From IMG/VR virus record IMGVR_UViG_3300005288_000001, positions 64,001 to 128,000 of that record: a stretch of 64,000 nt of DNA; one strand, given 5' to 3'. This DNA comes from a virus. Made by a program: the position numbers and the translations under genes. Each line of letters starts with the position of its first letter. Positions within the stretch are counted from its first letter, which is position 1. Of this stretch, positions 115 to 29,463 are shown one piece after another. The notes under the pieces are model-generated. The model ran no database searches and was not told the origin of the DNA. It saw only the letters and a list, made by a program, of their open reading frames with translations.

Positions 115-477
115 TTACTTTGGTCTAGCTAACCAATCAACTAAAACAGTCAAACCACCAGGGCGCCAAGTAAGAGAAATTTCTTTGAGACCCTTCTCTA
201 CCAGTCGGCAGGTCAGCATATAATCGAAAACGTGTTTGGCTTCGTTATATGCAGCCTCGGTGTAATATCCACTGACGTCTTCAAAACTGCCAAGCAAGAC
301 ACCATCTCTGGTGACGTACTTGACTGTATTAGAAGAAGTCTTCGAGGCTACCGCCTTTGCCGTACTTTTCGATTTTGTCTTTGATGATCGACTCATATTT
401 TCCTTCAGGATCAAATAACCACTCCGGGTTAATCCCCAGCACTTCATACATGTTTGGCATGTCTTTGTACTGCTCAT
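115..477 (-). CDS. hypothetical protein (true start uncertain, probably shorter)
   Basis: ORF fills the gap downstream of the AADT-like gene; its N-terminal part overlaps that gene. Confidence 0.4.
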   Translation of the reverse strand: MSSTKTCQTCMKCWGLTRSGYLILKENMSRSSKTKSKSTAKAVASKTSSNTVKYVTRDGVLLGSFEDVSGYYTEAAYNEAKHVFDYMLTCRLVEKGLKEISLTWRPGGLTVLVDWLARPK

Positions 478-1462
478 GCATATTGATTGGACTACCCGTT
501 GCTTCGAACAATTTCATCAGGGCTTTTGACTCTCGCTTCCACTGAATAGTTGGATATATTTTATCATTGACCGTGTCCCGAAAGCCGTCGAAATTGATTT
601 CAGGCCACTTTGCTTTGAATTCCAAGTAGCGGTTAACGGCATCGCCCGTATTCTGACCAGGATAATCTCGCCCGACGAAGAGCTTTTTACACTGACAGAG
701 GTGGGTTTCGAGAGTGAAGTATGATAGATAATGATCGCTAATTCTATCGCGTGCCTTGGCCATGAGCTCTTTCTCCCACTTTGCAGCGCGCTCGCGGTCT
801 TGCGGAGTTGGTTTGTGATTCGCGTAATGCTCGCCGACGGTGTACTGTTCTGCATTGTTGAGGAAGTGAAGACCGTTCCACACCGAAGTGTTGGCGGGAT
901 CGTTGATGAACATTGTGTCGGGACGAATTGGCAGATCGCAAGTTTCCGCAAGAGCTTGGCTAAACAACCAACCAGTCATACGCCCAAACTTATGGAGCTT
1001 CTGAATCTCTTCGTTTACGTTGTGGTAAGATTGAGTTTCGGAATCGACCAAGCACGACTCAAACGCATCTTTAATTGACCCTTTACCTCTACGATCCACA
1101 AATTCCTGTAAGGATTGGACCATCTTGACGATATGTCCTTTGTTATATCGAGTGTCCGTAGCGAACTTTTGTCTGGGCATGGTTTCACGATTCCATTCAT
1201 CCAGAAGCTTGAAGTCCAGTTTGTCATAATCGGGGAAGGTTTGGTAGAAAATCCAAGCCATAGAACTCTGATACGTCATACCGAACAGGTAAGCGAACCA
1301 AAACTTCTGGTCTTCAGTCATAGGAGCGCCAGTAACACTGTGCGCTGTATCACGGTAGCCATTATTCCACAAATAATGATCAATGCCACCTCCCTTCAAC
1401 CGCCAGTCCAGCCAGCGGAAGAAGAGTTCATCACGGTTTTCGTTTAATCGCCAGTCTTTCAA
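329..1462 (-). CDS. amino acid:DNA transferase-like protein (aGPT-Pplase2 / AADT family, HhH-glycosylase-like fold)
   Basis: Motifs WFAYLFGMTY, DTRYNKG, KFGRMTGW, ETHLCQCKK and YPG resemble phage base-hypermodification transferases; C-terminus SLEDFF. Confidence 0.7.
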   Translation of the reverse strand: MKDWRLNENRDELFFRWLDWRLKGGGIDHYLWNNGYRDTAHSVTGAPMTEDQKFWFAYLFGMTYQSSMAWIFYQTFPDYDKLDFKLLDEWNRETMPRQKFATDTRYNKGHIVKMVQSLQEFVDRRGKGSIKDAFESCLVDSETQSYHNVNEEIQKLHKFGRMTGWLFSQALAETCDLPIRPDTMFINDPANTSVWNGLHFLNNAEQYTVGEHYANHKPTPQDRERAAKWEKELMAKARDRISDHYLSYFTLETHLCQCKKLFVGRDYPGQNTGDAVNRYLEFKAKWPEINFDGFRDTVNDKIYPTIQWKRESKALMKLFEATGSPINMHEQYKDMPNMYEVLGINPEWLFDPEGKYESIIKDKIEKYGKGGSLEDFF

Positions 1463-2340
1463 AAGAAGTCCTCAAGAGTATTCGCACTGTCATCCGGTTT
1501 ATCCTGCATAAACCCAGACCAGCGGAGCTCTTTACTTAGGGGAAATTGCTTACGGAGCTCACGGATGTTTTTCAGGCGCAAGCTGTAGAAGTTCATTGAT
1601 TCGATAAAGACGGGATCTTGTTGGTAATAATCGCGAACGTAGGGCTCCTGCAAAGCTCGATAACAAGCATCCTTAGTTGCAGTTGCTCGTTCGTCGGTTC
1701 CTCGATCTCCTGAAGATTGCATACCTCCTCGGTTAGTGCCAACAGCTGTTGTGGCAACAAGCCAGTTGATAGAACCAACTCCGCCGTGGTTATGAAGAGC
1801 TCGAGCAGTTCTGATGTTATCGTCTTCATGGGACTGTTCTGTTCTAAGGGCTGACTTGTCATTGACGGCTCCCCACCAGGCGCCACCGATTTTGCGGAGC
1901 TTGAATTCAGCAAAGGGTTTCCCTTGCTTGAACATGAGATTTGGGGTGAAATCAAATCCAAAAGGCGTGGATCCAAAACATCCAAACGCGTATCCAAAAA
2001 GTCTTCCCAGAGCGACTTCATTGTCACGGCTGTCCTTATCCATAATGTCTTTGTACATCTTCACGGCAGAAATGTCATCGTCCATGAAGATAATCTTTTC
2101 CCCATCTGGGAAGTAATCGATCAGACCGTTGGTGGCGTTGTGGCCACCCTTCGGTACGATGATCATATCCAGCATAGGAACAGCTGGCAACTCAGCCTTG
2201 TATAGAGGATACTCGTCCTTCGTAACAGCCAGCACAAGCTGACGACCAAGGTCCAAGTCTGTCTGAGCGCTCAGGGTGCTGAGTGTTTTCTTCCAGATGT
2301 CTTTATGACGGCCATATGACCGTACAGCGATCTTAATCAT
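1459..2340 (-). CDS. TET/JBP-associated (GREB1-like) GT-A glycosyltransferase
   Basis: N-terminal IAVRSYGR, FMDDD (DxD), HEDD and GTNRGGMQ; close to a TET/JBP gene; C-terminus TLEDFF. Confidence 0.75.
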   Translation of the reverse strand: MIKIAVRSYGRHKDIWKKTLSTLSAQTDLDLGRQLVLAVTKDEYPLYKAELPAVPMLDMIIVPKGGHNATNGLIDYFPDGEKIIFMDDDISAVKMYKDIMDKDSRDNEVALGRLFGYAFGCFGSTPFGFDFTPNLMFKQGKPFAEFKLRKIGGAWWGAVNDKSALRTEQSHEDDNIRTARALHNHGGVGSINWLVATTAVGTNRGGMQSSGDRGTDERATATKDACYRALQEPYVRDYYQQDPVFIESMNFYSLRLKNIRELRKQFPLSKELRWSGFMQDKPDDSANTLEDFF

Positions 2341-2486
2341 TCGTGGTACACCCGCATTCCGGTAGACAAGGTTTGCTCAAGAGCCATACCTTCTGTCATC
2401 TTCTTCAGTGTCTCTTTGTCCTTAGCCATCAGGGCTTCTAAATCACCATTCTTTCTGCGGACCATGAAGAATATTTTCTTAATCAT
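2337..2486 (-). CDS. hypothetical 49-aa protein (MIKKIFFMVRRKNG...VYHE), not in ORF track
   Basis: Read manually; ATGA overlap with the glycosyltransferase start; fills the gap exactly. Confidence 0.55.
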   Translation of the reverse strand: MIKKIFFMVRRKNGDLEALMAKDKETLKKMTEGMALEQTLSTGMRVYHE

Positions 2487-2688
2487 AGATTGTCCAATCT
2501 TTCACTTTTAGCTTCCTATCGCCAATCTGTTTATAGGTTCCGGCTTCGATACGATCCAGAGTTTCAACGATCTCTTTGGCCACCTTCGGGTTCCAACCAA
2601 TGCCAGGGATATGGCAGCTGCAAAAGGATCCATCGTGGCGGGGATCAAGTCTCTGGCAAATTCGGCAAGGCCCATCAAACATGCTCAT
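2479..2688 (-). CDS. small hypothetical protein with CxxC...CxC
   Basis: Overlap-coupled ORF; CRIC and CSCH may bind metal. Confidence 0.55.
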   Translation of the reverse strand: MSMFDGPCRICQRLDPRHDGSFCSCHIPGIGWNPKVAKEIVETLDRIEAGTYKQIGDRKLKVKDWTIYD

Positions 2689-2908
2689 CTGGTATCTCCA
2701 TTAGTGGCATCCAATGCGTTGGATTTCGTTCAGGGTGGTCTGTGACATGGATTGTCACACCTGAAGATGTGACCCAGTTGGTGATAAAATATCCCGCCAT
2801 CCATGGACGCTTATCACCAGGCCACACCACGATACATTGTTGGCCCTGCTGTGGCTTTTCGTCCTCAAACTTGTACCACTTCATTGCTTCGTGTAGGAAT
2901 ATGTCCAA
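2675..2908 (-). CDS. DUF551-like small phage protein
   Basis: W-x-K-x-E-D-E-K-P start and PTHWMPL end are typical of DUF551. Confidence 0.65.
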   Translation of the reverse strand: MDIFLHEAMKWYKFEDEKPQQGQQCIVVWPGDKRPWMAGYFITNWVTSSGVTIHVTDHPERNPTHWMPLMEIPDEHV

Positions 2909-3078
2909 GTTCCCATTTTTGTTTGAGGATTGAACGTTGCTCGATAGACCATCGAGATGATGGGATTACCCACAGTCATGGAGACACCTTGTGTACCACA
3001 GAATTCCTCAGTGGGTTCTGGCAAGGCGCCAACATAGTCAGGTGTAAATCCCTTTCGGGAGATTGGAGTATGTATCAA
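2881..3078 (-). CDS. hypothetical protein
   Basis: ATGA overlap with the TET gene stop. Confidence 0.5.
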   Translation of the reverse strand: MIHTPISRKGFTPDYVGALPEPTEEFCGTQGVSMTVGNPIISMVYRATFNPQTKMGTWTYSYTKQ

Positions 3079-4409
3079 AAGAAATCCTCAAGTGATGCAC
3101 CCTTCTCGGCGTTCGGGTGGTGTTTCAGTAGTTCTTCCCGGCCCACGCGTTTCTCGCAATACTCAAACCACTCCTCCGAGTCCCACATACCTGGAGCGAT
3201 TCCGTTCCACTTGTAGCGTTGAAGCGGATGGCTAGGATCAAGGCGTCGACCCTCGACGAAATCTTCACGCGCTTTCTCATATTCGTAGCTGCCCAGCTCC
3301 AGCATGCCCTCTCGTAAGTAAACAACAAGACTTACTCTCTCGGAGTCTGGACTACCGAGAACAATTGGCGTGTTCCCATGAATAATGTCGTGGTTATTGA
3401 CGAGTAGTAGGTCCCCAGGCCGTACATTGACGGCCACTCGATACTCTGGGAATACGAGGTAGCCTCCGGTGTAATTTCCATCATTGGAGAGGACGAGGAG
3501 GTTAGACATACCTTCTGTATAATCGCCCGCGTCCCGATGGGCAGCCGTCCGAAACGTTGAGTTGACCGTAATCGTCGTGAATGGAGTACCCGGGATAACG
3601 AACGCTGGATCAATACTATCGGAAGCAGCTTTTTGGTTTGCGTATCGAGCCGGTAGCAAATCTCGGAACCCTTCGGCGAGACGCTGTAGAAATGGATATG
3701 CTTTGATGAAGTCTTCATAATGATCTCGTGTGTATCCAGTTGCACGGCCGAACGGGATGCGGGGATAGCGATCAAACCATCCAGCGATACCCGAACGAAC
3801 CTTGTTGCCATAGGTCGAAGTGGAGATGTAACCTGCTACTTCCTGAACTTTCTTATGGCGCTCAGGCTTCGCAAGAGGAATAAGGGAATCAACCCAACGC
3901 TCAAAATCGAAAGAAGGATCAAAACGAGCATAAACCCAAACAGTGTGCTTACCATTCCCGGTGACGACTTCTCGGCTTTCTTTCGTTGGGTAGCGCGCGC
4001 GAATTTTGTCAATTATTTCTTCCTCGACCAAAGCGGACGTAACCGAGTCTTCATCAATGGCTTCCAACATATCGTGTTGGTAATTTGTGACAAAGGCCCG
4101 AGCAACACGACCTTCTTCTGTTGTATGGCCTTCAAGGATCCCAGATGCCAGACCGCGATTTTCTGTTTCACGCGCCGCAGCACGTAAGCCTTCATATGCG
4201 GCTTGTTGGTCTTCCGTACGGAAATAATTTTTACGAAACTTGAACGCAATGCGTTTTTCGTCAAGGGGCGAACCCCCGACCGATTGGTCCGGTATGTAAC
4301 AGTCAGTGTCTTCATTGACTAGAATGTCGTAATGTGAATCGTCGATGAATCGGCCGATGGTGTTTTCGGCTTCTTCGTATCGTTGGGGAGCTACTAGAAT
4401 TTTTGTCAT
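3075..4409 (-). CDS. TET/JBP-family 2OG-Fe(II) 5-methylpyrimidine dioxygenase
   Basis: FTTITVN...TAAHRDAGD (HxD), HGNT (distal His), RVSLVVYLRE (2OG-binding Arg); C-terminus ASLEDFF. Confidence 0.85.
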   Translation of the reverse strand: MTKILVAPQRYEEAENTIGRFIDDSHYDILVNEDTDCYIPDQSVGGSPLDEKRIAFKFRKNYFRTEDQQAAYEGLRAAARETENRGLASGILEGHTTEEGRVARAFVTNYQHDMLEAIDEDSVTSALVEEEIIDKIRARYPTKESREVVTGNGKHTVWVYARFDPSFDFERWVDSLIPLAKPERHKKVQEVAGYISTSTYGNKVRSGIAGWFDRYPRIPFGRATGYTRDHYEDFIKAYPFLQRLAEGFRDLLPARYANQKAASDSIDPAFVIPGTPFTTITVNSTFRTAAHRDAGDYTEGMSNLLVLSNDGNYTGGYLVFPEYRVAVNVRPGDLLLVNNHDIIHGNTPIVLGSPDSERVSLVVYLREGMLELGSYEYEKAREDFVEGRRLDPSHPLQRYKWNGIAPGMWDSEEWFEYCEKRVGREELLKHHPNAEKGASLEDFF

Positions 4410-4427
4410 CAGTTATATAGATTGCTT

Positions 4428-5834
4428 TTAAAAGTTGAAGTCAAAGCCACCGCGCTTCTCAGCCGACTGTCCCTTTCCGAAACTAGTCTTATCAAAGGCT
4501 GGACCGGTGTCCTTGCCGCCAGAGTCAGCCAAGTCATCTTGGGCATCGTCTTCGACATTATACAACTTCATTCGAGCTTTGTCAACACCAACAACGAATC
4601 GCTTATAATAGCTTGGATCGCCATATCGATTCTTCAATTGCTTAATCATTAGCTGGTTCAACTCATCTAGCTCTTCAGTACGTATTATAGCTAGATAAAG
4701 ATCAAGCGCGTGGACGAGGCCCATAGACTCCGACGTATCGGTCATGGAAATATCCGACGAACCAATACCACCACGATTAACCTGGGTCGCCGTCAGGATA
4801 GGAACATTGTATTCCACAGCCAGACCACGGACTTCTTCGGCAATCGCCTTAACCGTCGTGTAGCTATTCGCGTTGGCGTTCGCACGGATACGCTGCGAGG
4901 CACAGATGTTCAGGTAATCGATAACGATCAAGTCTGGAACGAAACCACGCTTCTGCTTCAGATCCTCGATAAGAGCACGGAAGTGTCCAGCATGAGCACC
5001 GGAGGTTGGATACTCCTTGACGATTAGCTTACCAGTCGTACGGGAGGTAATCTTTCCCATACGCGAGTTGAACGTTCCCTGATCGATGTTTCTAAGTTGC
5101 TTGATCGGAGTATTGAACAGGTTCGCATCAATACGTTCCGCATAGCTGAACTCGGACATTTCCATCGAGATGATCAGGACGTTCTTACCCTGCATCAAAG
5201 TCGCTGCGGCGATGTGAGACATAACCAAAGACTTACCACCACCGGTTTCGGCGGCCAAACAGGTCAGGGTCTTGTTTCGTAAGCCGATACCATCCGTGAT
5301 CTTGTTGAGCAGATCAATGTCGAACTTGATACCAGTTTCTTGGGAGTGATAGTGTGCAAAACGATCGTCTGCATTCTCGAAGTAATCGTGACCAATGTTC
5401 GTGTCAAACGAAACGGCCAGGGCTTCTTGAAGCAGGGTTGGAATAGATTCTTGGGTACGCTTCTTGTCAACACCTTCCACAATCGCAATGGAATTGTAGA
5501 TAGCATTGTATACCGCCTTGGCCTTACAGAACTTCTCAGTTTCGTCTAGGAGCCATTGCTCGTTAACAGTTTCTGCCGCGAGCCCGTCAATAATTTCCGT
5601 CGTTGTTTTAATGTCCGCTTCCGTCAAATCCTTACGATTTGCAATAGCGATATTCAGCACCTCATGTGTACATGCCTTGGAGTACTTCTCAAAGAACTCC
5701 ACTGCGGATTCAATAAGCACTCGCTCATGACGATTCTCAAAGTATTCTGGCTTTAAGAAAGGTACAACCTTTCGGGTGTACTTTTCGTCATAGAGCAAGT
5801 GGGAAAGGATAGACTGCTCAATGCGTGCTGTCAA
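4428..5834 (-). CDS. 41: replicative DnaB-like helicase gp41
   Basis: Walker A AETGGGKS, SMEMSE, IVIDYLNIC, TATQVNR, QLKNRY; T4 synteny. Confidence 0.95.
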   Translation of the reverse strand: MTARIEQSILSHLLYDEKYTRKVVPFLKPEYFENRHERVLIESAVEFFEKYSKACTHEVLNIAIANRKDLTEADIKTTTEIIDGLAAETVNEQWLLDETEKFCKAKAVYNAIYNSIAIVEGVDKKRTQESIPTLLQEALAVSFDTNIGHDYFENADDRFAHYHSQETGIKFDIDLLNKITDGIGLRNKTLTCLAAETGGGKSLVMSHIAAATLMQGKNVLIISMEMSEFSYAERIDANLFNTPIKQLRNIDQGTFNSRMGKITSRTTGKLIVKEYPTSGAHAGHFRALIEDLKQKRGFVPDLIVIDYLNICASQRIRANANANSYTTVKAIAEEVRGLAVEYNVPILTATQVNRGGIGSSDISMTDTSESMGLVHALDLYLAIIRTEELDELNQLMIKQLKNRYGDPSYYKRFVVGVDKARMKLYNVEDDAQDDLADSGGKDTGPAFDKTSFGKGQSAEKRGGFDFNF

Positions 5835-5836
5835 GA

Positions 5837-6112
5837 TTAGGTTCCACCTGTGTAAATAATAGAGTTTTTCTGCACTCCTTCTCGAAGCAGGTCCGTCAGG
5901 TGATCACCTAATTCCTGCTCAAAGGCTTCAACATCGAATTCCTCGAGGGGATTTTCGATGATATCATAATCAAATTTAAGTGCCAGCTGATCGTTCTTTT
6001 TGTCTTCAAGCAGCTGAACCTTGGAGTAACTAAAAATTATACCCGCAAACGGTCCCTCTGTAAAGGCCAAGGCCTCGATTGGTCCGTTGATGTGGCTCTC
6101 AGTGTTTCTCAT
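5837..6112 (-). CDS. conserved T4-like protein at the gp40 position
   Basis: Acidic 91-aa ORF between uvsX and 41, where T4 has gene 40. Confidence 0.5.
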   Translation of the reverse strand: MRNTESHINGPIEALAFTEGPFAGIIFSYSKVQLLEDKKNDQLALKFDYDIIENPLEEFDVEAFEQELGDHLTDLLREGVQKNSIIYTGGT

Positions 6113-6320
6113 TTACACCCTTCGTAATGTAGTCGGCTGGATAATGTGCTCCGTTAGGGAGTCGAATGTAGAACTTGTCCCATGGAACAGTCATGTAATA
6201 GGTCGTCAGGATAACATCGAATGGACCGGTGATAACATCGATCCATCGCTCACCCTGGAAACCCACCAAGACACATCCCTTCTTGTACTCGAAAAGCTGC
6301 TCGATGATTTCCTTCTTCAT
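6099..6320 (-). CDS. hypothetical protein
   Basis: Tightly coupled ORF after uvsX. Confidence 0.55.
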   Translation of the reverse strand: MKKEIIEQLFEYKKGCVLVGFQGERWIDVITGPFDVILTTYYMTVPWDKFYIRLPNGAHYPADYITKGVNEKH

Positions 6321-7439
6321 TTATTCCACCTTTAGGTTAATTCCAATTGGTTCGTCTAGGTCGGAGTAGTCGTCATCCAGAAGTGAATCTGCAATGTCGT
6401 CATCCATATCGCTAGACATGATGTTACCGTTCGCTACTTGGTACTTCTGACGAATCCATTCCTTGAACGTTTCATCTGCCAGAATCTGATTCCAGAACAC
6501 CGAGTGATTCGTCTGCGCTTCACGCCAGTTCTTTTCCTCGATCTCACCAGTACCAGTGTTCACACGAGCGTACCAGCCGTTCTTTGGCTTGATAACGTGG
6601 CCGGATTCAAGTGCCATATCCAACAGACCGGACCACTTGTTAATCCCCTTCTCGTACATAACGTTGATAATGATCTTCGACTTTTCGCGAACGTAACGTG
6701 ACTTCTCAACATTAATCACGAAGTTCCAACCAACGATCTCAGTACCGTCCTTCTCTTGCTGACGACCGATAATGTAGATGTTATCTGCCGAGTAGTAAAT
6801 ACCCGTACCACCAGAAACGACTGCCTTCGAGTACATTTCCTGGGTTTGGTATGTATGGTTAACAACGTCCATCTTGATGTCCTTCAACTTCAAGTGAGGA
6901 GTGACCATACGGAAGACCGACTTCAGCTGTTTAGCACGAGTCATGTCGCCAACCGACTTACTATCAAGAGCGTCGTCAACTTCCTTCTTGGATGCCAGGT
7001 TACCAATCGAGTCAACAGCGATGAATACCTTATCACCACGTTCGATACCGTCCAGCTGGTTCATGACGTCAAATTTGAATTCTTCGATGTTGGTAATCGG
7101 AACGTGTAGCACACGAGACATGTCGATGTTGTATGCCTGGAAGTATGCTTGGGGAGTACCAAACTCACTATCATAGAAGATACAGATTGAGTCCTTATAC
7201 TTGTCCAGATACGACTTGATCATCAGGAGAAGATAGGAGGTCTTGAAGTGCTTGGAAGGACCGGCCCAGATGGTCAGGCCAGGTTCAAATCCACCATCAA
7301 GGTCACCCGAAAGGGCAACGTTAATTGCGGGGACTTGGGTTGTGATCATGTCCTTCTTATGGAAGAACTTAGAAACAGCTAGAACAGCCGTATCCTTGAT
7401 CGTTGAGTTTTTCTGTAGTTTATCGAGTAGTTTGGACAT
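6321..7439 (-). CDS. uvsX: RecA-like recombinase UvsX
   Basis: AGPSKHFKT, YDSEFG, DSIGNLASKKE, NHTY, VSGGTG. Confidence 0.95.
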   Translation of the reverse strand: MSKLLDKLQKNSTIKDTAVLAVSKFFHKKDMITTQVPAINVALSGDLDGGFEPGLTIWAGPSKHFKTSYLLLMIKSYLDKYKDSICIFYDSEFGTPQAYFQAYNIDMSRVLHVPITNIEEFKFDVMNQLDGIERGDKVFIAVDSIGNLASKKEVDDALDSKSVGDMTRAKQLKSVFRMVTPHLKLKDIKMDVVNHTYQTQEMYSKAVVSGGTGIYYSADNIYIIGRQQEKDGTEIVGWNFVINVEKSRYVREKSKIIINVMYEKGINKWSGLLDMALESGHVIKPKNGWYARVNTGTGEIEEKNWREAQTNHSVFWNQILADETFKEWIRQKYQVANGNIMSSDMDDDIADSLLDDDYSDLDEPIGINLKVE

Positions 7440-7477
7440 ATGTGTTAGAAGTATAGTAAAATAGTAAGAAGCCTTAC

Positions 7478-10018
7478 TTAGCCGAAGAAATCTTCAAGCG
7501 ATGCAGTCTCCTCAGCCGCCCACCCAAGAGGACCAATAACGGCGTTCAACGGTGCCAGGAAGGCTTTATCAAACATCGTGTCGTAGTCAATGTGCTGGTC
7601 AATCTTGAACTCTGCAGGGATCTTACTGATGTACGAAATAACGTTTTCGTGAAACGCGTTGGGCATACGGAGGTACGTATATTTGACCTTGTCTCCTTCC
7701 TGGATCATCGGATATTTGGTGTCGATCTTAAGTCGCTTCGCATGATGGTTGAAGAGCAGGGCGCCACGAACTTGGATAGGTGTGCCGGAACGATAGACCG
7801 GACTACCGGACCACTTGGCCAATCCATTACAACCACGAGGGAATGCAATCTCATTCACGTCCAACTTCATAAATTCCTGACGCGTATTCGCCACCAGCTT
7901 CTGTACGGACTTTTCGTCACCATACAGAACTGTCTCAACGGCGGAACGCAACTGTGTACGAACCACTGCTGGAGTAGACGACTTAACCAGGGCCAGACCA
8001 CGCACCTTCAACTTCGGCTTCTCATAACGAACACCTTCAGAGTCCCACACGCTGAGCGCGTAGTTCTTCTTGGCAACGAAGACCGAAACGTCAGCAAGAA
8101 CTTCTCGCTTCATGGACATCGCTTGTTTATACGAGTTCATGTATTTCGCCAGGTCTTCATACGATTGCTTAATCAGCGGCTGGATGACCTGCTCACAGAC
8201 CTTATCCATGAAGTCAATCTGGGACTTCACATCCTTGCCCGGCATCGTCTTATCTACAAGAGCCTCAAGAGTCAGGTAGAACGCGTCCGTGTCAATCGTG
8301 ATAACGTAATCCTTATCCTTCGTACCAAGAATCTTGTTCATCTTCTCGTTCATACGGTTAGCCATCCAGCGAATTGCCAGCTGACCAGATAGGGTAATGC
8401 CTTCGGCGATACGGAGATCGTAATAGCGGAAGTAGTTGGAACCGATCGCACCATAAGCCGAGTTCAGCTGAATCTTACGAGCCAGCTGCAGATTGTTCAG
8501 GCGAGCAATTTCATTGAGCAGGCTTGAGTCCTTCGTCTTCTCATACTTATCCTCAAGCGCAAGCATTTCCTTCTTAAACTTCTTACGTTCAGCATACATC
8601 TTCTCCATCAGGAACGGCAAGAAGCCTTGCTTAGACCTGGTATAGCAGACGCCGTTGGCCGTCATCGTCGCGTTGTTATCGTAGAGCCATTGAAGGTCCG
8701 TATCCTGTTCCAGGAGCCCATCCACTGTCACGTTGAAACGCTTATCCTGGATCATTGTCTCAGGACTGATGTTTGCCCACATCATAATGTGTGGATACAG
8801 ACTGTCCAAGTCGAACGAGGCGACGTTACGGTGCTTACCGACAATCGGAGGCTTAACGTAAGCTCCTTCGAACTGGCCACCCTTGCTGGTATGGGTCTTG
8901 TTCGGGATAACGATCTTCAGGTCACGGAAGTGATTGTAAATCAGGACGTCCCAGACTCGAATCTGACCAGACACGTCTTCATAGTTAACCTTCGCGTCAT
9001 AGGCCACCGTCAGCGTCAGGTCTAGCAGCTTATGCTTCGCGTCAATACCACGGACAATTTCATTGTCGATAATATTGTATGCTACGAACTTGTCCCAGTT
9101 CCCTTCATAGAATGCTCGGAAGGTATCGAACTCATCGTGGTTCAGTTTCTTTCGCTTCAGTTCTACGTCACCGATGTGGTCCAGACGATAGTTCTCTTGC
9201 TTCGGAATCGATGTCGACTTCTTATAGATTTCGATGTAATCGATGGCAGAAATACCGGCGATGAAGTAATAGATGGTCGTGTCTTCCTCAACGACTACTC
9301 GCTTCTCACGGATGACACCCCATGGCGAAATTTGCTTTGCGAAGTCTTCTCCCATCACCTTAATCATCCGACGAATCATGTAGGGGACGTCGAAGGTATC
9401 GATGTTCCAACCAGTGATAACGTCTGGATAATTATTGGCCCAGAACTTCATGAACTCTTTGAAGAGCGAAATCTCATCGGCACAGATCGTCTTCTCAATG
9501 ACAGGAATATTCTCCGGGTCATGCTCAAAGTATTCCTTCTTGATGGTAAAGTCTTTGGCCGAGAAGACATGATAGCGTTTGTGGAGGCTATCATAGAAGG
9601 AGATAAGCAGCACTTCCTGGTCGGTGGTTTCCATGTTCGGGAAGCCGTTTTCAGCACGGGTCTCGATGTCCAGGAAGTAGGTCCGAATCATATTCATATC
9701 CGGAGAACGAATGCCAGGATATGTGTCGGCGATGTACTGATACTCATAGCTGGTCATTCCATAGACGTTGAATCCATGGACATCCTTGTACTGCTCAATG
9801 AAGTTTCTACAGTCTTTGATGCTACCAGGCTTTACTGGATAGACTGGTTTACCCTCAAGAGTCGTCCACTCTGAGGTCACGCCTGTTTTCTTGGCGTCCG
9901 TGAAAAGCGTTGGTTCGAACTTGACCTTGCGCATGAATCTTTCGCCATTCCGAAAGTATCCACGTTCTAAAATCTGATTCCCGTATTGGAAAACGTTAAG
10001 GTAATTGTCTTGGCTCAT
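7478..10018 (-). CDS. 43: family B DNA polymerase gp43
   Basis: Exonuclease DIET, FDVPY, YNIID; polymerase DLDSLYP, KIQLNSAYG, DTD, KKNY; C-terminal clamp motif ASLEDFFG. Confidence 0.97.
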   Translation of the reverse strand: MSQDNYLNVFQYGNQILERGYFRNGERFMRKVKFEPTLFTDAKKTGVTSEWTTLEGKPVYPVKPGSIKDCRNFIEQYKDVHGFNVYGMTSYEYQYIADTYPGIRSPDMNMIRTYFLDIETRAENGFPNMETTDQEVLLISFYDSLHKRYHVFSAKDFTIKKEYFEHDPENIPVIEKTICADEISLFKEFMKFWANNYPDVITGWNIDTFDVPYMIRRMIKVMGEDFAKQISPWGVIREKRVVVEEDTTIYYFIAGISAIDYIEIYKKSTSIPKQENYRLDHIGDVELKRKKLNHDEFDTFRAFYEGNWDKFVAYNIIDNEIVRGIDAKHKLLDLTLTVAYDAKVNYEDVSGQIRVWDVLIYNHFRDLKIVIPNKTHTSKGGQFEGAYVKPPIVGKHRNVASFDLDSLYPHIMMWANISPETMIQDKRFNVTVDGLLEQDTDLQWLYDNNATMTANGVCYTRSKQGFLPFLMEKMYAERKKFKKEMLALEDKYEKTKDSSLLNEIARLNNLQLARKIQLNSAYGAIGSNYFRYYDLRIAEGITLSGQLAIRWMANRMNEKMNKILGTKDKDYVITIDTDAFYLTLEALVDKTMPGKDVKSQIDFMDKVCEQVIQPLIKQSYEDLAKYMNSYKQAMSMKREVLADVSVFVAKKNYALSVWDSEGVRYEKPKLKVRGLALVKSSTPAVVRTQLRSAVETVLYGDEKSVQKLVANTRQEFMKLDVNEIAFPRGCNGLAKWSGSPVYRSGTPIQVRGALLFNHHAKRLKIDTKYPMIQEGDKVKYTYLRMPNAFHENVISYISKIPAEFKIDQHIDYDTMFDKAFLAPLNAVIGPLGWAAEETASLEDFFG

Positions 10019-10085: not shown

Positions 10086-10241
10086 TCAGCTTTTACTGTT
10101 CGCTGCCATAAAGATTTTCTTGTACGAAGCGATGCTGCCCATGAAGTTGATGTGGCAAGCGTCTTTGTCTTTCATCGGCTGCACCTTATTCAAGTGCTCG
10201 ATAAAATGCTTCCAGGCTTCTTCAAGTTCCGTAGAAGTCAT
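10086..10241 (-). CDS. hypothetical 51-aa protein (MTSTELEEAWKHF...), not in ORF track
   Basis: Read manually; fills the gap before the hairpin. Confidence 0.55.
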   Translation of the reverse strand: MTSTELEEAWKHFIEHLNKVQPMKDKDACHINFMGSIASYKKIFMAANSKS

Positions 10242-10449
10242 TGACTAGTTTCGTTAGTGATGCCATATCTTGGGCTACTGTCAACGGCGAACGCGACTTG
10301 AACACGTCGACTTGGTTGACTGTATCGATTACAAGGCTGGCTCGTGCCATCAAGTCTTGAGGAACTGACTTAAAGGTCCCCTCGACCAGGAAGTTCTGGA
10401 CTTGTGATCCGCTCCTTGCACTGAACGCGGAGAACTGTAAGAAAATCAC
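10222..10449 (-). CDS. hypothetical protein
   Basis: GTGA overlap with the dexA stop. Confidence 0.5.
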   Translation of the reverse strand: MIFLQFSAFSARSGSQVQNFLVEGTFKSVPQDLMARASLVIDTVNQVDVFKSRSPLTVAQDMASLTKLVNDFYGT

Positions 10450-17065: not shown

Positions 17066-17483
17066 GTTCTTTCTTGGTATTTCCAATAGAGTATTTAGGA
17101 ACGAGAGTCCAGTTCACCTTTTCCTTGAATGAAACGATCTTAATCTGGTTCATAGGAGCCTGGGGAACAGCCTTGGTAGCGTCAACGATATATAGCAGAC
17201 CCCAATCTTGCAGAAGAACTGCGATCGAGTTTCGGCGCTCTACATCGTTGACGGAGATATCGGAAGCCTTAGAATCAAGATTGAATAGCTCCTTGAAGTG
17301 GACAATGTAATAGCGTCCTTGCTTATGGAGAATGTGACACGATTGAAACAGAGTTTGGTCCTTCTTGGACGCCACTCCGATTCGCGTCAGCGTTTCTCGA
17401 ATCTTCAAAAAGTTATCCGGAGTCGATAATGTAACCTCCAACATGGACGCAGGGGTCCATTCATAACGAACTGCTTCAGTCAT
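17037..17483 (-). CDS. regA: translational repressor RegA
   Basis: DNFLKIRETLTRIG, QSCHILHKQGRYYIVHFKELF. Confidence 0.95.
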   Translation of the reverse strand: MTEAVRYEWTPASMLEVTLSTPDNFLKIRETLTRIGVASKKDQTLFQSCHILHKQGRYYIVHFKELFNLDSKASDISVNDVERRNSIAVLLQDWGLLYIVDATKAVPQAPMNQIKIVSFKEKVNWTLVPKYSIGNTKKEHDTNAKPQP

Positions 17484-17863
17484 CTTCCACCTTTATCGTG
17501 CATCTGAGCGATACACTTTAATTGATCAGGCGTGAGGAGCTTCAAAATCTCCAAGGCTTTCGGCTCGGAAACAGTGTAGTGCTTCTTCACTAGCGCAACT
17601 TCGGCTGAGCTTTCCTTTTTCGCCCACTTAGAAAACCGTTTACGCTTTGAAACACTACTTAGTAGAAACTCGTACTGGAGCTTCTTGTCAAGGAAGGAGT
17701 ACCGATTCATTTCGTTGGCGTGCATGACCGTGTCCGGAAAGTAGGACAGGCCACGATTGACCATGAAAGGCAGATAGCCTTTCTCGCTATCCGGGTCTTC
17801 CTTGATTAAGTTCGTCTTCGAATCATTGATGGTGTTGAGCCAGTCGAATGGATTACTTGACAT
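17480..17863 (-). CDS. 62: clamp loader small subunit gp62
   Basis: PFDWLNTIN, YLPFMVNRGLS, ANEMN, RKRFSKWAK; start MSSNPF. Confidence 0.9.
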   Translation of the reverse strand: MSSNPFDWLNTINDSKTNLIKEDPDSEKGYLPFMVNRGLSYFPDTVMHANEMNRYSFLDKKLQYEFLLSSVSKRKRFSKWAKKESSAEVALVKKHYTVSEPKALEILKLLTPDQLKCIAQMHDKGGR

Positions 17864-18161
17864 CAAACCCCACTTTCTGCATTTCCGACAGCGAGGCATA
17901 GATATTCTTGCCAGGAAGGTTCAGCTTCACATGGGCAACCAATTCTTCCTTGGTCTTACCCTGACCCGCAAACTTTCCGTTCTGATCGTACGCATAGACA
18001 ATCCCGTTCTCTTCACGAGTCAGGGTGAGATGCGCCGTGTGGTACACCATTGACTCGAGAATCTCGTCCAGTTCTTCCTTTTGGGCAAGCCGAAACGATT
18101 TGTACGAATGGTATCCCCAAACAATTAGTCCGAAGCCGACGATGCAATAGAAGGTATTCAC
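17853..18161 (-). CDS. hypothetical protein with N-terminal TM helix
   Basis: Inserted between 44 and 62. Confidence 0.6.
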   Translation of the reverse strand: MNTFYCIVGFGLIVWGYHSYKSFRLAQKEELDEILESMVYHTAHLTLTREENGIVYAYDQNGKFAGQGKTKEELVAHVKLNLPGKNIYASLSEMQKVGFDVK

Positions 18162-19105
18162 TTGAACTCCACAGATGACATAATCTCAGTCATAGCTGCC
18201 ATGACATTGATTTCGGGGTCGGCCACGAACGCAGCCTTGTACTGGTAATCGGCAAGGATCAGGATCAGTTGAGGGATAGATGCCGGTACAAGAAGATCAA
18301 CAGACTTGTCGTAGAACATACGAAATAGAGCAGAAGTGTCCACATCGCTGTTCTTACCCACCCATTGTCGGACTTTGTTAAAAGCCTTCGCTCGAACGTT
18401 ATCAACCAGTTCTTTATACGATTCATCGCCAAGGTTCACCAGAATGCCAGCATCAATCTTTCCTGATACGGCATAGCTTTGCAGTTCGTTGAGGGTGCGA
18501 CGGAAGTCCGGAAAGTACTTCGTCACCAGTTCCGCCACTACTTTGGCGTCAAACTCAACACCCTCGGCCTTCAGAATTTCAGTGACGCGCTTGTGGAATT
18601 GCATTGCAATCTTGGGCTTGTCAGCGGCCGCAACCTTGAACGAAATAGTTGTGCAACGGCTGTGGATCGGTTCAATGATCTTTGCCTTTTGGTTACACGT
18701 CAGAATGAACGAGCAGTTGGAGCTAACCGCTTCCATCACCGCTCGGAGCGCTGGTTGGAACGAGTTCGGGTTAAGGCCGTCAGCCTCGTCAATAATAATG
18801 ACCTTCTTTGCATCAGTCAGGGAGACGGTCGTTGCGAAGCCCATGAGTTTCGTGCGAAGCGTATCAATGCCAGACTCTTCCGAGCCATTAATAAGCATGT
18901 AGTCTGCACCGAGTTCGTTACATAAGGCCAATGCAATTGTGGTCTTACCAACTCCCGCAGTTCCGGGTAGAAGGAGGGACGGGATGTTTCCTTTTGCTGC
19001 ATATTCCTTGAAGATGTTCTTGATGTTGGCGGGGAGAATGCAATCGTCAATTTTGCTGGGACGGTACTTTTGATACCAGACGAATTCTTTAGCGTTGTGA
19101 TCCAT
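18158..19105 (-). CDS. 44: clamp loader large subunit gp44
   Basis: KYRP, GTAGVGKTT, IDEAD, SRC, PDFRR. Confidence 0.95.
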   Translation of the reverse strand: MDHNAKEFVWYQKYRPSKIDDCILPANIKNIFKEYAAKGNIPSLLLPGTAGVGKTTIALALCNELGADYMLINGSEESGIDTLRTKLMGFATTVSLTDAKKVIIIDEADGLNPNSFQPALRAVMEAVSSNCSFILTCNQKAKIIEPIHSRCTTISFKVAAADKPKIAMQFHKRVTEILKAEGVEFDAKVVAELVTKYFPDFRRTLNELQSYAVSGKIDAGILVNLGDESYKELVDNVRAKAFNKVRQWVGKNSDVDTSALFRMFYDKSVDLLVPASIPQLILILADYQYKAAFVADPEINVMAAMTEIMSSVEFK

Positions 19106-19532: not shown

Positions 19533-20192
19533 TTACTCGAAAGTCGAGTCAGCTTCAATCGCGATGAAGTATTCCAGTTCGCCGTTGACAGCCTTGAAAC
19601 GGCTAATCTTCTTCGAGCTAATGGAAACGTCATACGAGCCAGCGACCAGCTTCAGGTTTTCCACCTTCAGGTTTACGCGGAACGTTCCGGTAGCAGCGCC
19701 AATCTCGATGACCGACTGGTTCGAGGTTGCGTTCTTCTTATCGGATACGACCACCGACAGCTTCGAGCCGTCACCGACAATAGCCAAGTCACCACCACGG
19801 AGAACCGCACTGGTACGTTGAATCATGGCCAGGTCTTCTTGCGAGAGCGTGAAGTTGACTTCTGCCGTCGGGAAGGTAATCTTCTTGGTTGGAGTAACCA
19901 GAACCGAGCTATCGGCAGCGAAGTACTTGATCGAGTTCGAGCCTTCTTGGATCAGAACAAACTTCTCGGTGAAGGACAGTTCCGGTTCGTTGAAGAGGCT
20001 CAGGGCGCCCAGGAATTCGCTCAGGTCATAGATACCGAACTCAGCGTCGAAGGTCTCGGTCACGACTGCGGAAGCCATGATGTTCTTCTGTGCGCTGATA
20101 GTTGCGATTTCGTTACCCGGCTTCAGCAAGAGATTGCTGTTGATGCTAGCGAAGTTCTTGAAGCGGGCGAGGGTGTCTTTGGATAGTTTCAT
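19533..20192 (-). CDS. 45: sliding clamp gp45
   Basis: MKLSKDTL..FKNFASIN, FGIYDLSEFL, YFIAIE. Confidence 0.95.
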   Translation of the reverse strand: MKLSKDTLARFKNFASINSNLLLKPGNEIATISAQKNIMASAVVTETFDAEFGIYDLSEFLGALSLFNEPELSFTEKFVLIQEGSNSIKYFAADSSVLVTPTKKITFPTAEVNFTLSQEDLAMIQRTSAVLRGGDLAIVGDGSKLSVVVSDKKNATSNQSVIEIGAATGTFRVNLKVENLKLVAGSYDVSISSKKISRFKAVNGELEYFIAIEADSTFE

Positions 20193-28270: not shown

Positions 28271-28677
28271 GGATTAGCTGACGGTTTTAGAATGTCCTCA
28301 ACCAGTTTCACAGGGAGAACAAACATATGGCCCATTATCATTTCGGAGTCTTTTTCGGGCATATCAGTTTTCGTGAATGTGATATCGTCTATGAGCATTT
28401 GAGCCAGAGCCAGAGCCATTTGGCGCTTGACCGAGATCTTCCATTCTTGCTCAGAATTGTACAATTCACGATTACCACTGGCAACCTCCATACGAACTTC
28501 GTACAGATGCTTGTCCATCTTAACAGCCAAGAGACCCATCTTAGTCCATTTGGCGTAAGGAGTTCCTTCTGGCTCCTTCACGACCGCAACTACTCGATGT
28601 TGCTGGCTAAGAGTTCCACCAAGTTTGGGATCGTAAGCGTCAGGAAGGGGAAGCAAGGTTTTAGGAGTCGTCATCAT
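28267..28677 (-). CDS. hypothetical protein
   Basis: Lies between 55 and 47. Confidence 0.55.
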   Translation of the reverse strand: MMTTPKTLLPLPDAYDPKLGGTLSQQHRVVAVVKEPEGTPYAKWTKMGLLAVKMDKHLYEVRMEVASGNRELYNSEQEWKISVKRQMALALAQMLIDDITFTKTDMPEKDSEMIMGHMFVLPVKLVEDILKPSANP

Positions 28678-29320
28678 TAAGTAAGTCTTCAGGAATTGGA
28701 AGACCCTCAAAGTCTGGGTCAGCCAACTCTTCTATCACAGGGTCCTCGACAAATTCGGCGAGGGACGGTTCGCTACTCTTCTTGGATTTCTTAGGCTTCT
28801 TTTTATCGAATACCGAAGTATCTACGTCGGAATGTTGTTGCATGAATTCAACCATAGAATTCGTGAACAAGCCGTCTTCATCATGCACTTGGAGGTCAAA
28901 CTGATTCTCCCATAGCATGCTGGTAACCATCTTTCCCTTAATCGCAGCTTGCTTCTTTTCGCGCGTAATGCGGCGAACGAAAGCATAGTAATTGATCTGG
29001 GTAAAATAGGCAAACGGCTTTGCGTAGTTGTAGGGATCGTAATTATCCAAATATCGAAGACAGTTTTCGATCCCGTCACTAATCATTTCGTCGCGGTATG
29101 AGTAACCTATAAAGTTTGACTTATAAGCTAGATGGCGCGCTATCTGGTAGATGCATGTTCCAATATACTCGGAAACTTGTGGCTTTTCTAAGCCTGCTTC
29201 TTTGGCAGCGTCGACTGCGGCACGGCGTTCCAGCATCGCAGCTTGGAACATCTCGTTATCCACGTAGTGGTGGGCGGTCGATTCAGGGGGATTTTCGGGG
29301 GTCAGTTCTGGCTCACTCAT
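28661..29320 (-). CDS. 55: late sigma factor gp55
   Basis: HYVDN, NFIGYSYRDEMISDGIENC, PFAYFTQI..YAFVRRI; start MSEPELT just after TATAAT; SLAEFV may be the clamp motif. Confidence 0.93.
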   Translation of the reverse strand: MSEPELTPENPPESTAHHYVDNEMFQAAMLERRAAVDAAKEAGLEKPQVSEYIGTCIYQIARHLAYKSNFIGYSYRDEMISDGIENCLRYLDNYDPYNYAKPFAYFTQINYYAFVRRITREKKQAAIKGKMVTSMLWENQFDLQVHDEDGLFTNSMVEFMQQHSDVDTSVFDKKKPKKSKKSSEPSLAEFVEDPVIEELADPDFEGLPIPEDLLNDDDS

Positions 29321-29463
29321 AGATAAATTATACCCTAAGATGGACAGAATGGCTAGTTTCACTCCAACTGGGTAATAGTTGGTAAAATAGTGGAACACCG
29401 CTTTACTTCTACTTTACAGGGTGTCATAATAGCGGTGTGGTGTCTGAAGTATGCCGTTGAAGT

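What the first reader, a model, noticed from the sequence alone, without database searches (positions are those of the whole stretch)
329..10018. Three DNA-modifying enzymes carry the polymerase's C-terminal clamp-binding peptide
Seen: the C-termini are AADT-like GGSLEDFF*, glycosyltransferase NTLEDFF*, TET/JBP GASLEDFF* and gp43 TASLEDFFG*. These four folds are unrelated, and no other called ORF in the window ends this way. Established: T4/RB69 gp43, gp33 and gp55 dock on the gp45 clamp through C-terminal SLDFL-type peptides. Inference: the modification enzymes ride on gp45 (19533..20192) and modify nascent DNA at or just behind the fork, shortening the time unmodified DNA is exposed to restriction or CRISPR. 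The tail also works as a search tag for further pathway members.
Basis: partly seen in the sequence, partly recalled or inferred. Interest (0 to 1): 0.85.

Follow-up and report, generated by a model that had tools for sequence, protein, structure and literature searches.

The report
Polymerase clamp tails on DNA-modifying enzymes
In this T4-like phage, three unrelated enzymes that chemically modify DNA end in the same six-residue peptide as the phage DNA polymerase, which T4-type polymerases use to hold the sliding clamp. DNA modification is therefore probably tethered to freshly copied phage DNA, although binding has not been measured.

Summary
LEDFF occurs four times in all six frames of the 172.5-kb genome (0.06 expected). 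Each time it ends a real gene: AADT, a GT-A glycosyltransferase, a TET/JBP dioxygenase and gp43. Codons differ, so selection acts on the peptide.

- Ranking all ORFs by tail likeness to gp43 puts the three enzymes first of 263. The same test on T4 returns gp55 and gp33, the known clamp binders.
- In 86 related loci the tail sits on gp43 (53/53), TET (82/84), GT-B, TAGT, GNAT and AADT enzymes. It never sits on gp41, UvsX or 320 other orthologues.
- The tail changes with the polymerase. ViI and LIMEstone1 use NLLSMM plus basic residues on polymerase, 5-hmdU DNA kinases and AADT. Vibrio phage D493 uses KRKLW. Cr30 uses DLSxLF.
- TETs of two phages with no detectable gp45 lack the tail.

A co-fold of gp45 with the TET tail gave no verdict.

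T4 alpha-glucosyltransferase is already known to bind gp45, though it lacks this tail. I found no paper describing these tails. This scan has noted the same thing before on other phage genomes. Verdict: a new variant of a known kind; confidence 0.75.

The parts
329..1462 (-). AADT-family (amino acid:DNA transferase) enzyme, 377 aa, ending GGSLEDFF
   Evidence: PF18724 ADDT E 1.6e-22, 80.8 bits (cut-off 26.2), and phrog_3271. Tail rank 2 of 263 ORFs against gp43.
332..349 (-). AADT tail SLEDFF
   Evidence: Translation.
1459..2340 (-). GT-A-fold glycosyltransferase (TAGT-like), 293 aa, ending NTLEDFF
   Evidence: TAGT PF20691 E 0.002, below the cut-off. hhalign to a bona fide TAGT: 66% probability over 87 columns. 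AF2 pLDDT 89.6; Foldseek finds TarP/TarS/RmlT/AvpGT at E about 1e-5. DDD 87-89 is invariant. 15 of 19 homologues keep the tail.
1462..1479 (-). GT tail TLEDFF, on a low-confidence C-terminal segment (model residues 287-293, pLDDT below 50)
3075..4409 (-). TET/JBP-family 2OG/Fe(II) DNA-base dioxygenase, 444 aa, ending GASLEDFF
   Evidence: PF12851 E 1.1e-23; phrog_24024 E 2.8e-133. H291/D293/H344 are invariant. 118 of 120 homologues down to 56% identity end in [ST]L[ED]xFF-type tails.
3078..3095 (-). TET tail SLEDFF (model residues 439-444, pLDDT below 50)
7478..10018 (-). gp43 family-B DNA polymerase, 846 aa, ending TASLEDFFG
   Evidence: DNA_pol_B and exonuclease domains; phrog_262 E 6e-303. 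48% identical to cyanophage gp43.
7481..7501 (-). gp43 tail SLEDFFG, positional equivalent of the T4/RB69 clamp-binding epitope
   Evidence: PMC2988020.
19533..20192 (-). gp45 sliding clamp, 219 aa, the proposed docking partner
   Evidence: PF09116 gp45-slide_C, 38.9 bits (cut-off 25); phrog_223 E 6e-73.
18158..19105 (-). gp44 clamp-loader large subunit
   Evidence: Gp44_lid and AAA domains; phrog_168 E 3e-117.
17480..17899 (-). Probable gp62 clamp-loader small subunit (by orthology only)
   Evidence: Its orthologue in related loci sits before regA. In other related loci the gene in that position is recorded as PF16790 Phage_clamp_A.
28661..29398 (-). gp55 late sigma factor, ending EDLLNDDDS (no LEDFF)
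   Evidence: phrog_234 E 3.4e-51; tail.

Best explanation
The C-terminal [ST]LEDFF peptide is a portable sliding-clamp-binding epitope. In gp43 it holds the polymerase on the gp45 trimer. The same peptide, at the end of a low-confidence C-terminal segment that probably acts as a flexible linker, has been added to the TET/JBP dioxygenase, the GT-A glycosyltransferase and the AADT transferase. These enzymes work on DNA after it is made. The genome has no C5-methyltransferase, so TET most likely oxidises thymine in DNA. By docking on free subunits of gp45, or on clamps left behind on replicated DNA, the enzymes would be concentrated on phage DNA, which is what the phage's gp44/62 loads with clamps, and could scan it in one dimension. 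That would give fast, phage-specific and possibly sequential modification. Shown here: the shared tails, their exclusivity, their conservation and their co-variation with the polymerase tail. Taken from established T4/RB69 work: what the polymerase tail binds. Inferred: binding of these enzymes to gp45, the timing at the fork and the protective benefit.
For: 1. Exclusivity. LEDFF occurs 4 times in the genome, always at a C-end, against 0.06 expected. TET, AADT and GT rank 1-3 of 263 ORFs by tail likeness to gp43. If the three had been named in advance, the chance would be about 3e-7.

2. Positive control. The same ranking on T4 returns gp55 and gp33 as numbers 1 and 2 of 267. These are the proteins whose tails bind gp45 and can be swapped with the gp43 tail (PMC2988020).

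3. Conservation. In 86 related loci with 1308 ORFs, a loose tail pattern hits gp43 53/53 and TET 82/84. It hits gp41 0/86, UvsX 0/64 and other orthologues 0/320. The 43 further hits are mostly the 449-aa GT-B next to TET; others include a GNAT and a TAGT. The AADT homologues listed there end GLENF, GLENFL or similar, apart from one ending GIFDYA. 15 of 19 GT homologues keep the tail.

4. Dialect switching with the polymerase.
- ViI: gp43 VNLLSMMGKKG, HMUD2 kinase VSLLGLMRKA, AADT VNLMSLLKR, HMUDK_hel protein SVNLLDRLKKPE.
- LIMEstone1: the same dialect.
- Vibrio phage D493: polymerase KARKLW, HMUD2 KTKKLW, AADT KTRKLW, HMUDK_hel STKRLW.
- Cr30: polymerase DLSSLFD, GT DLSKLF.
- DLP_6: polymerase TLDSFFA, TET TLGDFFV, TAGT DLSSFFN.

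5. Link to the clamp. ViI, D493 and Melnitz have gp45-family clamps and tailed enzymes. HTVC112P and S-CBWM1 gave no gp45 match and their TETs have no tail; small phage P12024L also has a tail-less TET.

6. Not part of the fold. 142 of 150 AADT cluster representatives have no such tail.

7. Architecture. The tails fall on the low-confidence C-terminal end of the models.

8. Precedent. T4 alpha-GT co-purifies with gp45 (PMC13216743), and T4 ligase binds gp45 through LDFLF (PMC6212786).
Against: No binding data exist for any of these tails.

That the gp43 tail of this phage, ViI or D493 binds its clamp is an extrapolation from T4 and RB69.

gp55 of this phage lacks the motif. T4's own alpha-GT, the one modification enzyme known to bind gp45, also lacks it.

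The P-loop kinase of the same cassette (PF18751, genome 58609-59151) has no tail. GATase, amidoligase and small 2OG oxygenases in relatives also have none. So either not every pathway member is tethered, or these act on soluble precursors.

Within the LEDFF group, polymerase and enzyme tails co-vary only weakly. Mean identity is 3.94 of 5 against 3.61 when shuffled; 122 of 5000 shuffles reach the observed value; relatedness is not controlled.

Cr30 TET (GATLF) and Cr30 AADT (KWFKVL) match their polymerase tail poorly.
Confidence: 0.75

Rival explanations
1. The tail is a docking peptide for a different shared partner of the polymerase and the modification enzymes, not the gp45 pocket. Candidates are the clamp loader, gp32, a replisome-organising factor or a chaperone.
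For: All my evidence shows a partner shared with the gp43 tail; it does not identify that partner. In T4 the clamp loader also contacts the same face of gp45 (PMC2988020).
Against: The C-terminal tail of T4/RB69 gp43 is mapped biochemically and crystallographically to gp45. The T4 positive control returns the two other known gp45 binders. Tailed enzymes were found in the phages where a gp45-family clamp was detected, while HTVC112P and S-CBWM1, with no gp45 match, have tail-less TETs. Clamp net charge becomes more negative where tails are basic: -4 to -6 for acidic-tail phages against -11 for ViI and -23 for D493. That is only five genomes and a crude measure.
Confidence: 0.12
2. The tail is a regulatory or turnover signal, such as a C-terminal degron or a timing or localisation tag, shared by early replication-phase proteins rather than a tether to DNA.
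For: Short hydrophobic C-termini can act as protease tags. All tailed genes are early or middle-type genes in one transcriptional direction.
Against: Other early replication proteins in the same operons never carry it: gp41, UvsX, gp44 and gp62. The motif changes completely between lineages, from acidic FF to basic LW, yet stays matched to the polymerase. That fits a co-evolving phage partner better than a conserved host protease.
Confidence: 0.06
3. The resemblance is chance, or a by-product of recent 3'-end recombination between neighbouring genes, and has no function.
For: The four genes lie within 10 kb on one strand.
Against: 0.06 occurrences are expected and 4 are seen, all terminal. Codons differ. 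The tail is kept on homologues down to 37-56% identity and on other enzyme families in other phage families.
Confidence: 0.02

Closest known systems
C-terminal gp45-binding epitopes of T4/RB69 gp43, gp55 and gp33 (T4 gp43 ...SLDFLFG; reviewed in PMC2988020)
   Same: A short hydrophobic, here also acidic, peptide at the very C-end, set beyond the folded domain and shared between the polymerase and other proteins of the same phage. A tail-likeness ranking recovers both sets: gp55 and gp33 in T4, and TET, AADT and GT here.
   Different: The clients here are DNA-base-modifying enzymes (dioxygenase, glycosyltransferases, AADT; in relatives GNAT and 5-hmdU DNA kinases), not transcription factors. 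gp55 of this phage lacks the motif. Binding is untested.
T4 alpha-glucosyltransferase-gp45 interaction (Sommer et al. 2004, cited and reproduced in PMC13216743)
   Same: A phage DNA-modifying enzyme that physically associates with the phage sliding clamp, proposed to couple modification to replication.
   Different: T4 alpha-GT ends KEQFDIITK and has no polymerase-type tail, so its binding mode is different or unknown. The 2026 study also concluded that the interaction is not what mainly sets the alpha/beta glucosylation ratio.
T4 DNA ligase internal LDFLF loop bound to gp45 (PMC6212786)
   Same: The same kind of clamp-binding motif grafted onto an enzyme of another fold, giving a non-processive DNA enzyme a sliding platform.
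   Different: In the ligase the motif is internal, within a loop of the NTase domain, and helical. Here it is strictly C-terminal.
ViI-type thymidine hypermodification enzymes (5-hmdU DNA kinases, AADT/aGPT-Pplase; Lee et al., PMC8989533)
   Same: Post-replicative DNA hypermodification enzymes, including an AADT homologous to the one here. I find that they too carry their own polymerase's tail.
   Different: The tail dialect differs (NLLSMM plus basic residues) and the entry step differs (5-hmdU is incorporated during replication rather than made by TET). The paper does not mention a clamp at all.
ParB-dependent phage T-dioxygenases (PMC13229309)
   Same: A phage TET/5mYOX that needs a partner from a DNA-clamp family. 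The authors suggest that ParB may stabilise the enzyme on DNA.
   Different: That partner is a ParB homologue encoded next to the enzyme. This genome has no ParB and has a gp45-type tail instead. HTVC112P shows the opposite arrangement: ParB beside TET, no tail and no gp45 match.

Membership tests
[quoted passage not shown] | Sits at the extreme C-terminus, outside the folded domain | tested here: met
   The motif is followed by a stop, or by G and a stop. Tail residues have pLDDT below 50 in the GT and TET models.
[quoted passage not shown] | Closely resembles the tail of the cognate gp43 polymerase | tested here: met
   TET, AADT and GT rank 1-3 of 263 ORFs. The method recovers gp55 and gp33 in T4.
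[quoted passage not shown] | The phage encodes a gp45-family clamp and a gp44/62 loader | tested here: met
   PF09116 and phrog_223 for w19533-20192; phrog_168 for w18158-19105.
[quoted passage not shown] | Tail co-evolves with the clamp/polymerase system across lineages | tested here: met
   Four dialects are each shared by polymerase and modification enzymes: this phage, Cr30/DLP_6, ViI/LIMEstone1 and D493. Within the LEDFF group the signal is weak.
[quoted passage not shown] | Physical binding to gp45 | not testable with these tools
   This needs ITC, fluorescence polarisation, pull-down or a structure.
TET/JBP 2OG-Fe(II) dioxygenase (PF12851) | Profile match above the curated cut-off, and HxD...H iron ligands | tested here: met
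   83.7 bits against a cut-off of 34.9. H291, D293 and H344 are invariant in 20 homologues.
TET/JBP 2OG-Fe(II) dioxygenase (PF12851) | Substrate base (5mC or T) | tested here: inconclusive
   The genome has no C5-MTase, HMUDK_hel or ParB. That favours thymine, but there is no chemistry.
AADT / aGPT-Pplase (PF18724) | Profile match above the curated cut-off | tested here: met
   80.8 bits against a cut-off of 26.2. It has homologues in Cr30 and in ViI-type phages.
TET-associated glycosyltransferase TAGT (PF20691) | Profile match above the curated cut-off | tested here: not met
   18.5 bits against a cut-off of 27.5. hhalign to a true TAGT gives 66% probability over the N-terminal 87 columns only. 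I therefore file it as a GT-A-fold, TAGT-like enzyme, not as a TAGT member.
GT-A fold glycosyltransferase | Rossmann-like GT-A fold with a DxD motif | tested here: met
   AF2 pLDDT 89.6. Foldseek finds TarP, TarS, RmlT and AvpGT at probability 1.0 and E about 1e-5, with TM only 0.40-0.48. D87-D88-D89 are invariant.
gp43 family-B replicative polymerase | Exonuclease and polymerase domains; T4-like synteny with uvsX and gene 41 | tested here: met
   The order pol-uvsX-41-TET is conserved in relatives.

The most novel reading that the evidence does not exclude
A general rule may hold in clamp-encoding phages (Kyanoviridae-like, Cr30/DLP_6-like, Ackermannviridae, D493-like vibriophages). Under it, enzymes that modify bases in polymer DNA are clients of the phage sliding clamp, through a lineage-specific C-terminal peptide that co-evolves with the polymerase tail. 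The tail would then serve as a sequence tag separating DNA-acting steps (TET, GT, AADT, GNAT, 5-hmdU kinases) from soluble-precursor steps (GATase, inositol-phosphate synthase). It would also flag unannotated clamp clients, such as the 70-99-aa phrog_4789 proteins and the 71-aa ORF here. ParB-dependent TETs of clamp-less phages would be the alternative way of putting the same enzyme on a sliding DNA platform.
Probability: 0.35. Interest if true: 0.85.

Novelty: new variant of a known kind. Interest (0 to 1): 0.72.

Why it matters
Post-replicative hypermodification leaves newly made phage DNA briefly unprotected, and it must distinguish phage DNA from host DNA. A clamp tether would address both problems, because gp45 is loaded by the phage's own loader on replicating phage DNA. 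It would also give distributive enzymes a one-dimensional search.

The idea is directly testable in culturable phages: ViI, Cr30 and DLP_6. It could explain why isolated enzymes often modify only a fraction of sites in vitro; for example, about 23% of 5-hmdU was phosphorylated in PMC8989533. It gives annotators a simple tag for finding new DNA-acting enzymes and clamp clients. It also parallels DNMT1-PCNA coupling in eukaryotes (from my own knowledge).

Tried and rejected
- Co-fold of the gp45 trimer (alignment A2) with the last 44 residues of TET (alignment A3). The scores were 0.59-0.60, but one unrelated-protein control scored 0.44, so the tool's verdict was 'no answer'. I do not use it for or against binding.
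- Megablast of w1-10100 against the phage collection found no match. The phage is known only from metagenomes.
- Identifying the 71-aa GDLEDFM protein as gp33 failed. There was no significant PHROG, Pfam or NCBIfam match and no tblastn hit, and only one close metagenomic relative, with the same tail. It stays a candidate.
- Within-group co-variation of polymerase and TET or GT-B tails among the LEDFF-type loci is weak and not controlled for relatedness. I rely instead on the switches between lineages.
- A DNA-repeat or gene-conversion origin of the tails is rejected, because the codons differ and conservation is deep.
- The idea that the tail belongs to the AADT fold is rejected: 142 of 150 cluster representatives lack it. 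Some of those may be fragments.
- The Ralstonia phage RP13 AADT-like protein has no evident tail. I did not look up its polymerase, so it is uninformative.
- A PDB sequence search with the GT profile gave nothing meaningful.


Full report
**What is there.** The window is bases 64001-128000 of a 172,501-bp metagenomic phage genome with direct terminal repeats. It is T4-like. The minus strand carries gp45 (w19533-20192), gp44 (w18158-19105) and a probable gp62. It also carries gp43 (w7478-10018), UvsX (w6321-7439) and a DnaB-like gene-41 helicase (w4428-5834). The polymerase is about 48% identical to cyanophage gp43. No near-identical record exists in the phage collection.

Directly after the helicase come three enzymes:
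- a TET/JBP dioxygenase (w3075-4409, PF12851, E 1.1e-23);
- a 293-aa glycosyltransferase (w1459-2340);
- an AADT-family transferase (w329-1462, PF18724, E 1.6e-22).

The glycosyltransferase reaches only 18.5 bits on the TAGT model, below its cut-off. Its profile aligns with a true TAGT over the N-terminal 87 columns at 66% probability. Its AF2 model is confident (pLDDT 89.6). Foldseek matches it to GT-A enzymes (TarP, TarS, RmlT, AvpGT) at E about 1e-5, with TM-scores of only 0.40-0.48. A DDD motif is invariant. I call it a GT-A-fold, TAGT-like enzyme.

**The observation.** The four C-termini read GGSLEDFF, NTLEDFF, GASLEDFF and TASLEDFFG, as reported. LEDFF occurs nowhere else in any frame of the whole genome. 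Residue frequencies predict 0.06 occurrences. The encoding DNA differs at synonymous positions, so selection acts on the peptide. One further ORF, outside the window (71 aa, genome 43071-43286, next to an RNase H-like exonuclease), ends GDLEDFM. gp55 (w28661-29398) ends EDLLNDDDS and does not share the motif.

**Is it the polymerase's clamp tail?** In T4 and RB69 the hydrophobic, acidic C-termini of gp43, gp55 and gp33 bind gp45 and are interchangeable (PMC2988020). T4 ligase binds gp45 through an internal LDFLF (PMC6212786).

I built a blind test. All ORFs of a genome are ranked by BLOSUM62 likeness of their last residues to the gp43 tail.
- On T4 the top two of 267 are gp55 and gp33, so the test finds known clamp clients.
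- On this genome the top three of 263 are TET, AADT and GT. The next are a baseplate hub ending GFENFF and the 71-aa ORF.

**Conservation.** 118 of 120 TET homologues, down to 56% identity, end in [ST]L[ED]xFF-type tails. In 86 loci around TET homologues (1308 ORFs), a loose tail pattern hits gp43 53/53 and TET 82/84. It hits gp41 0/86, UvsX 0/64 and other orthologues of this genome's genes 0/320.

The 43 remaining hits are mostly the 449-aa GT-B glycosyltransferase just after TET. Others include a 213-aa GNAT (TLEEFLV) and a 265-aa TAGT (STLEEFF). The AADT homologues listed there end GLENF, GLENFL, GLEAFL or GLEQFI, apart from one ending GIFDYA. 15 of 19 homologues of the GT keep the tail.

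GATase, amidoligase-like and small 2OG oxygenases in the same cassettes have no tail. Neither do the inositol-1-phosphate synthase and the PF18751 P-loop kinase of this genome.

**Co-variation across lineages.** This is the strongest evidence.
- Salmonella phage ViI: gp43 ends VNLLSMMGKKG, the HMUD2 5-hmdU DNA kinase VSLLGLMRKA and the AADT VNLMSLLKR. A fixed tail pattern finds only these three and a 70-aa protein (KVNLLSLMRK) among 213 ORFs. An HMUDK_hel protein ends SVNLLDRLKKPE.
- Dickeya phage LIMEstone1 repeats this dialect.
- Vibrio phage D493: the polymerase ends KARKLW, HMUD2 KTKKLW, AADT KTRKLW, an HMUDK_hel protein STKRLW and a 99-aa protein KTKRLW. These are exactly five of 213 ORFs.
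- The two small proteins are homologous to each other (phrog_4789), yet each carries its own phage's dialect.
- Cr30: polymerase DLSSLFD and GT homologue DLSKLF, which ranks first of 266 ORFs.
- DLP_6: polymerase TLDSFFA, TET TLGDFFV (ranks first) and TAGT DLSSFFN.

ViI, D493 and Melnitz have gp45-family clamps. S-CBWM1 and HTVC112P gave no match, and their TETs have no tail. The small phage P12024L also has a tail-less TET. The tail is not part of the AADT fold: 142 of 150 cluster representatives lack it. Clamps are more acidic where tails are basic. Net charge is -11 in ViI and -23 in D493, against -4 to -6 in the acidic-tail phages. That is five genomes and a crude measure.

**Mechanism proposed.** The tail tethers DNA-acting modification enzymes to gp45, either on free subunits at the replisome or on clamps left on replicated DNA. 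This would concentrate them on phage DNA and let them scan it.

The genome has no C5-methyltransferase, no HMUDK_hel-family kinase and no ParB. TET therefore probably oxidises thymine in finished DNA. If so, nascent DNA would be completely unmodified, and fast coupling would be valuable.

These steps are inferred: binding, timing and benefit. A co-fold gave no verdict and is not used.

**What is known already.** T4 alpha-GT co-purifies with gp45 (Sommer 2004; reproduced in PMC13216743), but it lacks this tail. The papers on phage TET/5mYOX, viral DNA glycosyltransferases and thymidine hypermodification do not describe clamp tails. Six full-text searches found none; subscription journals are not covered. 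The ParB-dependent T-dioxygenases (PMC13229309) may be an alternative platform: HTVC112P has ParB beside a tail-less TET and no gp45 match.

Earlier notes of this scan report the same tails on other T4-like marine phages and on ViI-like phages. I reproduced the ViI case here independently.

**Verdict.** It is a new class of clients for a known docking mechanism.

Noticed in passing
outside the window: genome 43071-43286 (-), = L012:5071-5286: A 71-aa ORF ends GDLEDFM. It lies next to an RNase H-like exonuclease (phrog_107) and matches no family. One close relative keeps the same tail. It may be a gp33-like clamp client.
   Followed up: partly
L130:2356-2568 (ViI Vi01_049c) and L131:2592-2891 (Vibrio phage D493): Two small homologous proteins (phrog_4789, unknown function) each carry their own phage's polymerase-type tail, KVNLLSLMRK and KTKRLW. 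They are candidates for unannotated clamp-binding factors such as gp33 analogues.
   Followed up: partly
window 4428-5834 (-) and its orthologues in L019, L023, L024, L026, L034 and L039: The gene-41 helicase has its own conserved aromatic C-terminal motif: GGFDFNF here, and DGFKF, AEFNF, EGFKF, SGFQF, SGFKF or EGFKV in relatives. It is distinct from the clamp tail and may dock another partner.
   Followed up: no
outside the window: genome 62676-63986 (-) and 58609-59151 (-); Cr30 L005:17293-18474; RP13 L133:12762-14042: A myo-inositol-1-phosphate synthase (PF01658) lies close to TET, GT and AADT in this phage and in Cr30, and near an AADT-like gene in Ralstonia phage RP13. A PF18751 P-loop kinase without a tail also belongs to the neighbourhood. 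The final modified base is unknown.
   Followed up: partly
window 81361-82065 (+) (outside the given finding) and DLP_6 genome 135667-136368 (-): The baseplate hub protein (phrog_150) ends GFENFF. A 233-aa DLP_6 ORF, whose family I did not check, ends GMENFFV. This ENFF ending is the nearest non-enzyme look-alike of the tail and is probably unrelated.
   Followed up: no
window 10222-10449 (-): A 75-aa ORF between gp43 and an exonuclease ends SLTKLVNDFYGT. This is a weak tail look-alike (rank 6), and the ORF matches no family.
   Followed up: no
L104:2042-3576 (Pelagibacter phage HTVC112P): A ParB-like gene lies directly upstream of a tail-less TET in a phage with no gp45 match. This is the opposite of the arrangement here, which has no ParB, a gp45 and a tail.
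   Followed up: partly
L106:2350-4534 (Methylophilales phage Melnitz-3): Next to gp43 (TTLEDFFG), a C5-methyltransferase without a tail precedes a 328-aa TET ending NLNDFLGE. So a 5mC-type TET in a Kyanoviridae phage also has a tail-like end.
   Followed up: partly
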